Of a stretch of DNA of 64,000 nt, positions 3,001 through 3,945 are shown in pieces; position 1 is the stretch's first letter; every line of letters starts with the position of its first letter. Made by a program: the position numbers. Source of the DNA: Escherichia coli O157:H7 (GTDB lineage: Bacteria; Pseudomonadota; Gammaproteobacteria; Enterobacterales; Enterobacteriaceae); the NCBI RefSeq assembly GCF_013167455.1, contig NZ_CP038328.1. One strand, written 5' to 3'.

Positions 3001-3945
3001 ATGTCCAAAATCGGCATGACTCTGGAAATCGAACTGGGTTGCACCGGTGGTGAAGAAGACGGCGTGGACAACAGCCACATGGACGCTTCTGCACTGTACA
3101 CCCAGCCGGAAGACGTTGATTACGCATACACCGAACTGAGCAAAATCAGCCCGCGTTTCACCATCGCAGCGTCCTTCGGTAACGTACACGGTGTTTACAA
3201 GCCGGGTAACGTGGTTCTGACTCCGACCATCCTGCGTGATTCTCAGGAATATGTTTCTAAGAAACACAACCTGCCGCACAACAGCCTGAACTTCGTATTC
3301 CACGGTGGTTCCGGTTCTACTGCTCAGGAAATCAAAGACTCCGTAAGCTACGGCGTAGTGAAAATGAACATCGATACCGATACCCAATGGGCAACCTGGG
3401 AAGGCGTTCTGAACTACTACAAAGCGAACGAAGCTTATCTGCAGGGTCAGCTGGGTAACCCGAAAGGCGAAGATCAGCCGAACAAGAAATACTACGATCC
3501 GCGCGTATGGCTGCGTGCCGGTCAGACTTCGATGATCGCTCGTCTGGAAAAAGCATTCCAGGAACTGAACGCGATCGACGTTCTGTAAGTCATTCCTTTC
3601 TGCTTATCTCAAGGCCCGCTCTGCGGGTCTTTTTTTCGCCAAAAGCAAAATTGCCTGATGCGCTATGCTTATCAGGCCTACACGTATCCTGCAATATATT
3701 GAATTTGCAGGTTTTTGTAGGCCGGATAAGGCGTTCACGCCGCATCCGGCATGACAAAGCGCACATTGATATCTGTCTGAGCCCCGCTCTGCGGGGATTT
3801 TTTTGCCAAAAGCAAGGTGATTCAGATGAGAAATCTGTGATCTATTTGGCAAAATTATGCTTTATTGTTTACCCTTGTCAGACTGCCCGTCATAAGGCGG
3901 CGGAGTGTATTTCTCCATTTTGAGTCAGTTGAAAAGGAATATTGA

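What the first reader, a model, noticed from the sequence alone, without database searches (positions are those of the whole stretch)
3613..3805. Duplicated terminator hairpins flanking a REP/BIME cluster downstream of fbaA
Two near-identical hairpin-plus-T-run units (cccgctctgcggg+T7 at 3613-3637 and ccccgctctgcgggg+T7 at 3781-3805), each followed by gccaaaagcaa, bracket three REP-type palindromes. This looks like a local duplication that copied the terminator along with repeat sequence, giving a tandem double terminator upstream of mscS.
Basis: seen in the sequence. Interest (0 to 1): 0.3.

Follow-up and report, generated by a model that had tools for sequence, protein, structure and literature searches.

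The report
Terminator duplicated around a BIME-1 insertion
In this E. coli O157:H7 window the fbaA transcription terminator occurs twice because a well-known ~130-bp repeat (a BIME-1 element) sits between two copies of it. The parts are ordinary, but the same "host hairpin, BIME-1, host hairpin" layout recurs at other BIME-1 sites and may be a footprint of how these repeats insert.

Summary
Two direct copies of the fbaA intrinsic terminator (hairpin, T-run, GCCAAAAGCAA; 34 of 37 positions identical, 168 nt apart) flank one BIME-1/RIB/RIP element: Y-REP, IHF-type L linker, Z1-REP. That is two REPs, not three.

Every other Enterobacteriaceae genus where fbaA adjoins mscS (about 50 loci), two Escherichia lineages and about 31% of 5,426 E. 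coli genomes have a single terminator and no BIME. Their spacer is 190 nt instead of 357 nt. The long allele equals the short one plus 167 nt (BIME-1 plus a second terminator copy).

Escherichia sp. E1V33 carries three terminators and two BIMEs as a 169-nt tandem array. In E. whittamii the second hairpin has decayed.

Published K-12 Term-seq shows RNA 3' ends in the U-tract of both hairpins. T1 appears in all three conditions and T2 only at LB OD 2.0.

Four of 19 sampled BIME-1 loci (roughly 15 distinct) have flanks more alike than any cross-locus pair. Four loci have single-hairpin empty alleles: fbaA-mscS, metE-ysgA, mog-satP, rsmS-mscK. The duplication is therefore most likely a by-product of BIME-1 insertion, not an independent local duplication.

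The components are known. The target-hairpin duplication did not appear in the literature I could search.

The parts
2509..3588 (+). fbaA CDS (class II fructose-bisphosphate aldolase); stop codon TAA at 3586-3588
   Evidence: ORF list and translation; annotated as fbaA in 100%-identical O157:H7 records
3611..3636 (+). T1, the primary intrinsic terminator of fbaA: 9-bp stem AAGGCCCGC/GCGGGTCTT, loop TCT, U-tract T7 at 3630-3636
   Evidence: Terminator scan. Fold of -14.1 kcal/mol. K-12 Term-seq 3' ends at 3070119/3070118 correspond to window 3634/3635 and appear in all three growth conditions. The sequence is identical to the single terminator of short alleles.
3612..3648 (+). Direct-repeat copy 1 (hairpin + T-run + CGCCAAAAGCAA)
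3649..3815 (+). The 167-nt segment present in long alleles and absent from short alleles (BIME-1 plus the second terminator copy). Its frame is ambiguous within the 37-nt repeat.
   Evidence: Alignment A1 of long and short E. coli alleles. Spacer is 357 nt against 190 nt. 3,719 of 5,426 genomes are long.
3652..3681 (+). Y-type REP (iREP orientation, ending in CTAC), the left arm of the BIME-1
   Evidence: Inverted repeats. Alignment with 15 other BIME-1 copies. Contains the TGCC|TGAT RAYT cleavage motif described by Ton-Hoang 2012.
3682..3716 (.). BIME-1 L linker. Palindrome CTGCAATATATTGAATTTGCAG at 3689-3710. IHF-like site ATTCAAtataTTG on the minus strand (3692-3704; 8 of 9 specified positions of WATCAAnnnnTTR).
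   Evidence: Rfam RF02751 hit at 3674-3716 minus, 47.3 bits, above the gathering score. The 18-mer CTGCAATATATTGAATTT retrieves other BIME-1 loci. The IHF consensus is from memory and binding was not tested.
3717..3750 (+). Z1-type REP (starts with GTAG), the right arm of the BIME-1
   Evidence: Exact match to the Z1 consensus recalled from memory; inverted repeat I2
3751..3781 (+). BIME-1 right outer motif ATGACAAAGCGCACATTGATATCTGTCTGAG (consensus CATGAACAAAGCGCACTTTGTCAnCAATCTGAG)
   Evidence: Multiple alignment of BIME-1 loci
3780..3815 (+). Direct-repeat copy 2 (hairpin + T-run + GCCAAAAGCAA)
3782..3804 (+). T2, the second (distal) terminator: 6-bp all-GC stem CCCCGC/GCGGGG, loop TCT, then A, then T7 at 3798-3804 (K-12 has T6 then C)
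   Evidence: Terminator scan. Fold of -11.6 kcal/mol. K-12 Term-seq 3' end at 3069950 corresponds to window 3803; it appears on the LB OD 2.0 tab only, with 44,902 reads against 54,607 for T1.
3946..4806 (+). mscS CDS, the downstream gene that the two terminators insulate
   Evidence: ORF list; annotation in identical records

Best explanation
The feature is the Rho-independent terminator of fbaA (the last gene before mscS), present as two direct copies, T1 and T2, on either side of one BIME-1 (RIB/RIP) element.

Origin:
- Shown: the ancestral fbaA-mscS spacer had one terminator and no BIME.
- Shown: within Escherichia a BIME-1 came to lie just downstream of the terminator, and the occupied allele carries a second copy of the terminator on the far side of the element.
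- Inferred: the duplication was produced by the insertion itself. It looks like a structure-defined target duplication, because the same 'host hairpin, BIME-1, host hairpin' layout with single-hairpin empty alleles is seen at other BIME-1 loci.
- Unusual here: the repeat is longer (37 nt, against about 20 nt elsewhere) and includes the T-run, so both copies are complete terminators.
- Inferred from the allele series: the two repeats later served as substrates for unequal recombination or slippage. This gives 0 BIME/1 terminator, 1 BIME/2 terminators, and 2 BIMEs/3 terminators in Escherichia sp. E1V33.

Function:
- T1 terminates most fbaA transcripts.
- RNA polymerase that reads through transcribes the BIME-1 and stops at T2. 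This yields a longer 3'-UTR isoform and keeps read-through from a very highly expressed glycolytic gene out of the mscS promoter region.
- T2 is a competent but dispensable back-up terminator.
For: Anatomy and significance.

BIME-1 identity:
- Rfam L-linker hit above the gathering score.
- Exact Z1 REP.
- Alignment with 15 other BIME-1 copies.

Ancestral state:
- About 50 loci from other Enterobacteriaceae genera with fbaA next to mscS almost all have a 158-220-nt spacer with one hairpin plus T-run. Two have larger spacers, 405 and 494 nt, with unrelated inserts.
- The Escherichia short allele is collinear with them.

Polymorphism:
- 3,719 of 5,426 E. coli genomes are long; the rest are 167-168 nt shorter.
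- Short allele = T1 joined directly to GGTGAT.
- ATCC 11775 and Nissle 1917 are short.

Other Escherichia:
- L007 and L008 are short.
- E. whittamii is long, with a decayed T2 hairpin.
- E1V33 has a 169-nt array of 2.2 copies at 96% identity.

Generality:
- At 19 BIME-1 loci (roughly 15 distinct), left-against-right flank alignment of the same locus scores 30 or more at 4 loci. All 342 cross-locus pairs score 22 or less.
- Weaker but visible copies occur at 4 more.
- Clean occupied/empty pairs with one hairpin against two exist at metE-ysgA, mog-satP and rsmS-mscK.
- metE-ysgA was empty in every one of 15 sampled E. coli records and no E. coli genome covered 80% of the occupied query. It is occupied only in a roughly 93%-identical non-coli contig, which argues for insertion rather than loss there.

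Function:
- K-12 Term-seq (Adams et al. 2021, PMC7815308, supplementary file 1) shows T1 3' ends in LB 0.4, LB 2.0 and M63 with 160,555, 54,607 and 120,854 reads.
- The T2 3' end appears in LB 2.0 with 44,902 reads. Both map inside the U-tracts.
- T1 is invariant across Escherichia while T2 varies, consistent with T1 being the constrained main terminator.
Against: - The fbaA copy is atypical. The 21 nt between the T1 hairpin and AATTGCC read TCTTTTTTTCGCCAAAAGCAA, where canonical BIME-1 copies read TGAGAyTGmTGACAAACGCAA. The length is the same and the 3' 11 nt match at 9 of 11. So the left end is either truncated or was overwritten by gene conversion, and a simple 'target duplication' does not by itself explain the 37-nt repeat.
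- Only about half of the sampled BIME-1 loci show a recognisable second hairpin. The sample was ascertained through an exact 18-mer in metagenome contigs.
- Direction within E. coli is unresolved. The insertion is shared with E. whittamii and E1V33, so the roughly 1,700 short E. coli alleles may be secondary losses. Yet no chimeric T1/T2 short allele was found.
- T2 has lost its hairpin in E. whittamii and is absent in 31% of E. coli, so any benefit is weak.
- The T2 3' end was called in only one of three conditions, and a stable hairpin can also mark exonuclease trimming rather than termination.
- No known bacterial transposition chemistry, including RAYT/IS200-IS605, predicts a 19-37-bp hairpin-sized target duplication.
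Confidence: 0.72

Rival explanations
1. Independent local tandem duplication. A slippage or unequal-exchange event duplicated the terminator region for reasons unrelated to the BIME, and the BIME-1 merely lies in the duplicated interval.
For: - Tandem amplification of the [BIME + terminator] unit does occur at this locus in Escherichia sp. E1V33.
- The 37-nt repeat here is longer than the roughly 20-nt hairpin copies at other loci.
Against: - A tandem duplication of any segment containing the BIME would give two BIMEs, but E. coli has one.
- The short allele and all outgroups lack both the BIME and the second terminator together.
- The same hairpin-BIME-hairpin layout recurs at unrelated loci with single-hairpin empty sites.
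Confidence: 0.08
2. Template-switch or gene-conversion origin. The BIME-1 was copied in from another locus by replication template switching or ectopic repair, using short homologies between the BIME ends and the native flanks. The segment between the two switch points (hairpin + T-run + 12 nt) was thereby duplicated. No transposase-type target duplication is involved.
For: - Microhomologies exist at both junctions of the fbaA copy. Native GCCAAAAGCAA resembles the BIME left outer motif GACAAACGCAA (9 of 11). Native ATCTCAAG upstream of T1 resembles the BIME right end ATCTGAG.
- The canonical left end is missing from this copy, and the duplication is unusually long.
Against: At metE-ysgA, mog-satP and rsmS-mscK the duplicated segment is essentially the hairpin itself and the BIME ends are complete. 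There is no obvious junction homology there. A single structure-dependent mechanism is therefore more economical.
Confidence: 0.15
3. T2 is a non-functional relic. All relevant termination happens at T1, and the T2-ending RNA is a decay intermediate stabilised by the hairpin.
For: - The T2 hairpin is destroyed in E. whittamii.
- T2 is absent in about 31% of E. coli.
- The T2 3' end was called in only one of three conditions and classed as 'orphan'.
Against: - The T2 3' end maps to the last U of the tract, as expected for intrinsic termination, with a read count comparable to T1 in that condition.
- The G.U to C-G difference between T1 and T2 changes both sides of one stem pair and keeps it paired.
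- The stem and T-run were intact in all four long E. coli alleles aligned.
Confidence: 0.25

Closest known systems
BIME-1 / RIB / RIP elements of E. coli (Gilson 1991; Boccard & Prentki 1993; Oppenheim 1993; Bachellier 1997)
   Same: - One Y and one Z1 REP in inverted orientation around the conserved L linker with an IHF-type site.
- Single copy, about 140 bp, extragenic, at the 3' end of a transcription unit.
- Present or absent among isolates. This is stated for BIME-1 in PMC1187871 and PMC3333891.
   Different: - In this copy the left outer motif is half replaced by a U-tract, so the upstream host hairpin remains a complete terminator.
- The flanking duplication of the host hairpin is not mentioned in any paper I could read. 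The 1991 and 1997 primary papers were not retrievable.
Tandem (double) intrinsic terminators, e.g. rrnB T1-T2 and the dual terminators of rrn operons
   Same: Two hairpin-plus-U-tract terminators in series on one strand. The second catches read-through, and an RNA segment between them is made by read-through (the abstract of PMC8144298, seen, describes this for rrn operons).
   Different: Here the two terminators are copies of each other, separated by a mobile-type repeat. The arrangement is polymorphic within the species and absent from related genera.
MITEs and their target-site duplications
   Same: - A short non-coding element with imperfect terminal inverted repeats (about 15 nt, AGAyTGnTGACAAA in the BIME-1 consensus).
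- Occupied and empty sites exist.
- Direct repeats of host sequence lie at both ends.
   Different: - The duplicated host segment is 19-37 nt, and its length follows the size of a host hairpin rather than a fixed transposase stagger.
- No cognate DDE transposase is known.
REPIN/RAYT (TnpA-REP, IS200/IS605-like Y1 HUH transposase) model of REP mobility
   Same: - Two inverted REPs form the presumed mobile unit.
- C|T dinucleotides, the obligatory RAYT cleavage motif (TGCC|TGAT), are present at the Y-REP foot and in both outer motifs: GAGAC|TGATGAC and CAATC|TGAG.
   Different: IS200/IS605-type single-strand transposition makes no target duplication (PMC2817692). The hairpin duplication seen here is not predicted by that model.

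Membership tests
Intrinsic (Rho-independent) terminator: T1 | GC-rich stem-loop immediately followed by a U-tract, on the sense strand downstream of a stop codon | tested here: met
   9-bp stem, loop of 3, T7; starts 23 nt after the fbaA stop; -14.1 kcal/mol
Intrinsic (Rho-independent) terminator: T1 | RNA 3' ends in vivo within the U-tract | tested here: met
   Published K-12 Term-seq has 3' ends at the 5th/6th U in three conditions. This is the K-12 orthologue, not O157.
Intrinsic (Rho-independent) terminator: T2 | GC-rich stem-loop followed by a U-tract | tested here: met
   6 GC pairs, loop of 3, then A + T7 (T6 in K-12); -11.6 kcal/mol
Intrinsic (Rho-independent) terminator: T2 | RNA 3' ends in vivo within the U-tract | tested here: inconclusive
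   A 3' end at the last U was called only in LB OD 2.0 (44,902 reads, 'orphan'). Termination cannot be separated from 3' trimming.
Intrinsic (Rho-independent) terminator: T1 and T2 | Termination independent of Rho | not tested
   My search of the Rho-region table (supplementary file 2) for fbaA and mscS returned only a site downstream of mscS. I did not search it by spacer coordinates.
BIME-1 (RIB/RIP) | One Y REP and one Z1 REP in inverted orientation | tested here: met
   3652-3681 and 3717-3750; the arms are 93% complementary; Z1 is an exact consensus match; alignment with other copies
BIME-1 (RIB/RIP) | Conserved long L linker carrying an IHF site | tested here: met
   Rfam RF02751 (the L linker) at 47.3 bits, above the gathering score. 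8 of 9 specified positions match the IHF consensus. IHF binding itself is not testable here.
BIME-1 (RIB/RIP) | Single copy per locus, extragenic, at the 3' end of a transcription unit | tested here: met
   One element between the fbaA stop and mscS. The exception is two tandem copies in Escherichia sp. E1V33.
BIME-1 (RIB/RIP) | Conserved outer motifs at both ends | tested here: inconclusive
   The right outer motif is present though diverged. The left outer motif is only half recognisable, with GCCAAAAGCAA against GACAAACGCAA.
Transposable element with target-site duplication (MITE-like) | Occupied and empty alleles differing by the element plus one copy of a flanking direct repeat | tested here: met
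   fbaA-mscS, metE-ysgA, mog-satP, rsmS-mscK
Transposable element with target-site duplication (MITE-like) | Terminal inverted repeats | tested here: inconclusive
   An imperfect TIR of about 15 nt is seen in the family consensus. It is not intact in the fbaA copy.
Transposable element with target-site duplication (MITE-like) | Fixed-length target duplication set by a cognate transposase | tested here: not met
   The duplicated segment varies from about 19 to 37 nt and tracks the host hairpin.
Transposable element with target-site duplication (MITE-like) | Demonstrated mobilisation by a transposase (RAYT or other) | not testable with these tools
   Only sequence footprints are available.

The most novel reading that the evidence does not exclude
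BIME-1 elements are MITE-like units that integrate next to host terminator-type hairpins and duplicate the whole hairpin. This would be a structure-defined target duplication of about 19-37 bp. The insertion would thereby keep a terminator for the upstream gene, which would explain why these elements sit at 3' ends of transcription units. It would be a concrete insertion footprint for E. coli REP/BIME elements, one that the RAYT/IS200-IS605 single-strand model does not predict. The fbaA locus is the best-preserved example. The stated probability covers both that the pattern is real and general and that it has not already been described in the 1990s BIME literature, which I could not read.
Probability: 0.3. 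Interest if true: 0.65.

Novelty: new variant of a known kind. Interest (0 to 1): 0.42.

Why it matters
For this locus alone it matters little. It shows that a repeat insertion left fbaA with two working terminators, that the arrangement is polymorphic in E. coli, and that it changes the fbaA 3' UTR and the insulation of mscS.

The wider point is more useful. How REP/BIME elements spread has been an open question since the 1980s, and I know of no in vivo transposition demonstrated in E. coli. A reproducible footprint is a directly testable clue to the insertion mechanism:
- the host hairpin is duplicated on both sides of BIME-1;
- empty sites carry a single hairpin;
- the element's orientation relative to the upstream gene is consistent.

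The footprint would also explain why these elements accumulate at gene 3' ends at low cost to the host.

Tried and rejected
- Chance similarity: rejected.
- Chimeric T1/T2 short allele, expected if deletions between the repeats were frequent and random. A synthetic chimeric query found no exact match. The best hits are T1-type with one T fewer (FEX669).
- An E. coli allele with 2 BIMEs and 3 terminators: not among the best-scoring matches, all of which span 531 nt against a 701-nt query.
- An intermediate-length allele in strain HH97 turned out to be homopolymer garbage, i.e. an assembly error.
- The fruA and chbG-katE loci have duplicated hairpins, but their alternative alleles differ by larger rearrangements. 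They give no clean empty site. The gldA-yijF alternative allele is longer and was not followed up.
- Primary BIME papers (Bachellier 1997, PMC1207841; Gilson 1991, PMC333889) are not held. I therefore could not check whether the flanking duplication was already noted.
- The NC_000913.3 copy shows no repeat_region annotation at the locus.
- The Term-seq supplement of PMC9023263 is not held.
- Two analysis slips were corrected. fbaA was first translated out of frame (redone). The first flank analysis put the element boundaries inside the hairpins and gave a false negative (redone).
- I considered whether GCCAAAAGCAA in the short allele is a BIME footprint. The short spacer is collinear and equal in length with outgroups, so I treat it as native. 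Its 9-of-11 match to the BIME left motif remains unexplained.

Full report
**Where we are.** The window is E. coli O157:H7; bases 3450-4000 are 100% identical to several O157:H7 chromosomes. The finding lies in the 357-nt spacer between fbaA (2509-3588, +) and mscS (3946-4806, +).

**Observation.** Two terminator-like units exist as described.
- T1 has stem 3611-3631 and T7 at 3630-3636.
- T2 has stem 3782-3796 and T7 at 3798-3804.
- Each is followed by GCCAAAAGCAA.
- They align over 37 positions with 3 mismatches and one gap, 168 nt apart.
- The direct-repeat score is 51, against a mean of 17.3 and a maximum of 25 in 300 dinucleotide shuffles.
- The 13-nt core occurs only at these two places in 64 kb.
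- Both fold as simple hairpins, at -14.1 and -11.6 kcal/mol.
- In the whole read-through RNA, T1, both REPs, the linker palindrome and T2 all form independently (-84.7 kcal/mol, z = -5.3).

**What lies between the copies.** It is not three REPs. It is one BIME-1 (also called RIB or RIP):
- a Y-type REP at 3652-3681;
- the conserved L linker at 3682-3716, with an IHF-like site;
- a Z1-type REP at 3717-3750;
- a right outer motif at 3751-3781.

The linker matches Rfam RF02751 (ES036/CssrF) above its gathering score. The Z1 REP matches the consensus exactly. The whole element aligns with 15 other BIME-1 copies recovered from metagenome contigs.

**Comparative evidence at this locus.**
- Ancestral state. 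I recovered the mscS locus from 80 GTDB species representatives, and fbaA lies next to mscS in 56 of them. In the roughly 50 loci from other genera the spacer is almost always 158-220 nt with one hairpin plus T-run. Two have larger spacers with unrelated inserts.
- Collinearity. The Escherichia short allele aligns collinearly with the outgroups. A single terminator is therefore ancestral.
- Within E. coli. 3,719 of 5,426 complete genomes carry the long allele; the rest are 167-168 nt shorter. The short allele is T1 joined directly to the sequence that follows T2.
- Which strains. The short allele occurs in ATCC 11775 and Nissle 1917. The long allele occurs in O157:H7, K-12 and O26:H11.
- Other Escherichia. 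Two lineages, L007 and L008, are short. E. whittamii is long, with the same junctions and the same GGGGATTTTTT half of T2, but its T2 hairpin is destroyed. Escherichia sp. E1V33 has three terminators and two BIMEs, a 169-nt array of 2.2 copies at 96% identity.

From this I draw three conclusions:
- The insertion is old, since it is shared by three Escherichia species.
- T1 is invariant while T2 drifts.
- The 37-nt repeats evidently support unequal exchange, which would generate both the expanded array and BIME-free alleles.

Whether the E. coli short alleles are secondary losses or retained ancestral alleles is not settled. No chimeric T1/T2 short allele was found, and none of the best-scoring E. 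coli matches carries the expanded array.

**Function.** Published Term-seq for K-12 MG1655 (Adams et al. 2021, PMC7815308, supplementary file 1) gives the following.
- T1: 3' ends at 3070119/3070118, the 5th/6th U of the T1 tract, corresponding to window 3634/3635. These appear in LB OD 0.4, LB OD 2.0 and M63, with 160,555, 54,607 and 120,854 reads, and are classed as the primary fbaA end.
- T2: a 3' end at 3069950, the last U of the T2 tract, corresponding to window 3803. This appears on the LB OD 2.0 tab only, with 44,902 reads, and is classed as 'orphan'.

T1 does so in all conditions, and T2 does so detectably in late growth. A hairpin-protected decay end cannot be excluded for T2.

The T1-to-T2 differences include a change on both sides of one stem pair (G.U to C-G) that keeps it paired. 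They also include a change that opens the next pair.

**The wider pattern.** The 18-mer of the L linker retrieved about 25 distinct E. coli-like BIME-1 loci.
- Consensus. The element runs from TGAGAyTGATGACAAACGCAAAA(T/C)TGCC to CATGAACAAAGCGCACTTTGTCAnCAATCTGAG. The ends form an imperfect inverted repeat of about 15 nt.
- Flanks. At many loci the element is bracketed by two direct copies of a locus-specific GC hairpin.
- Statistics. I aligned the left flank of each of 19 loci (roughly 15 truly distinct) against right flanks. Same-locus scores reach 30 or more at four loci (fbaA, metE, fruA, chbG-katE). Another four score 15-19. All 342 cross-locus pairs score 22 or less.
- Occupied/empty pairs. 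In addition to fbaA-mscS, three loci give clean comparisons in which the empty allele has one hairpin and the occupied allele has two:
  - metE-ysgA: all 15 sampled E. coli records are empty and no E. coli genome covers 80% of the occupied query; the occupied form is in a roughly 93%-identical non-coli contig.
  - mog-satP.
  - rsmS-mscK: 3,881 of 5,426 genomes occupied; O157 is empty.
- Orientation. Wherever a stop codon could be recognised, the upstream gene's 3' end faces the Y-REP side.
- U-tract. At metE, fruA and L130 the distal hairpin copy is followed by a clear T-run. At mog and chbG-katE it is not. The proximal copy abuts the BIME's left end.

The fbaA duplication is therefore one instance, and the best preserved, of a recurrent association between BIME-1 presence and duplication of the adjacent host hairpin.

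**What is special about the fbaA copy.** The 21 nt between the T1 hairpin and AATTGCC read TCTTTTTTTCGCCAAAAGCAA rather than the canonical TGAGAyTGmTGACAAACGCAA. The two are the same length, and the last 11 nt match at 9 of 11. As a result T1 keeps a U-tract and both copies are complete terminators.

Three readings are possible:
- a longer original duplication;
- later gene conversion between the copies;
- a template-switch insertion guided by these microhomologies.

I cannot distinguish among them. The resemblance of the native GCCAAAAGCAA to the BIME left motif is unexplained.

**Mechanism (inference).** A duplication whose length follows the hairpin suggests structure-dependent cutting or copying at the foot of a hairpin or cruciform, rather than a fixed transposase stagger.
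- RAYT (TnpA-REP) cleaves single-stranded DNA at C|T, for example TGCC|TGAT (Ton-Hoang et al. 2012).
- Such motifs occur at the Y-REP foot and in both outer motifs.
- IS200/IS605-type transposition, however, makes no target duplication.

The observed footprint is therefore not predicted by the current model.

**Literature.** BIME-1 structure, IHF binding, 3'-end location and presence/absence among isolates are all known. I found no mention of flanking host-hairpin duplication in the papers I could search or read. The two most relevant primary papers are not held, so prior description cannot be excluded.

**Verdict.** The mechanism is wrong: this is a BIME-1 insertion with duplication of the target terminator, not a local duplication of terminator plus repeats. 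The components are ordinary and the locus is polymorphic and dispensable. The recurrent hairpin duplication is a modestly interesting, testable lead on BIME mobility.

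Noticed in passing
window 2397-2440 (pgk-fbaA spacer, about 2355-2485): An exact copy of the ERIC/IRU core (consensus recalled from memory) lies between pgk and fbaA. K-12 Term-seq lists an 'orphan' RNA 3' end inside it (3071314). Intestinirhabdus alba (L031) has an ERIC-like insert in its own fbaA-mscS spacer.
   Followed up: partly
window 3674-3716 (minus strand): The Rfam family RF02751 (ES036/CssrF 'sRNA') matches the BIME-1 L/IHF linker. This suggests the family models a dispersed DNA repeat rather than a single sRNA gene.
   Followed up: partly
window 3835-3880; alignment A2: The block TGTGATCnnnTTGGCAAAA...TTGTTTACCCTT upstream of mscS is conserved across all Enterobacteriaceae genera examined. 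It is probably the mscS promoter or a regulator site. A 10-nt perfect inverted repeat links the T2 tail (TTTTGCCAAA, 3801-3810) to it (TTTGGCAAAA, 3845-3854).
   Followed up: no
window 3638-3648 and 3805-3815: The native GCCAAAAGCAA after each terminator matches the canonical BIME-1 left outer motif GACAAACGCAA at 9 of 11 positions. Outgroups have GCCATTTCAAT at that position. It could be coincidence, insertion-site homology or a conversion footprint.
   Followed up: partly
L210 (E. coli HH97, NZ_CP116409.1 1165725-1166057): The fbaA-mscS spacer in this 'complete genome' is degraded into C homopolymer runs inside the BIME. This is an assembly or polishing error, not a real allele.
   Followed up: yes
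L101 1180-1500 (metagenome contig OLIF01000062.1): Two tandem BIME-1-like units with a different REP subtype (GCCGGATGCGATGCTGGCGC...) share the same L linker. BIME-1-type units are therefore not always single copy.
   Followed up: no
L215 / L214 (rsmS-mscK spacer): The two hairpin copies flanking this BIME-1 differ from each other and from the empty-site hairpin by paired changes that keep the stems intact: GGGGTCGC...GTCCCC, GGGGCAAC...GTTGCCCC and GGGCGGC...GTCGCCC. This suggests continued selection on hairpin structure.
   Followed up: no
L099 (metagenome contig, about 700-1000): Three related copies of a hairpin preceded by CCAAAAGCAAAAAC lie around one BIME-1: one to the left, one degenerate copy adjacent on the right, and one about 130 nt further right. 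This may be a more complex history of duplication.
   Followed up: no
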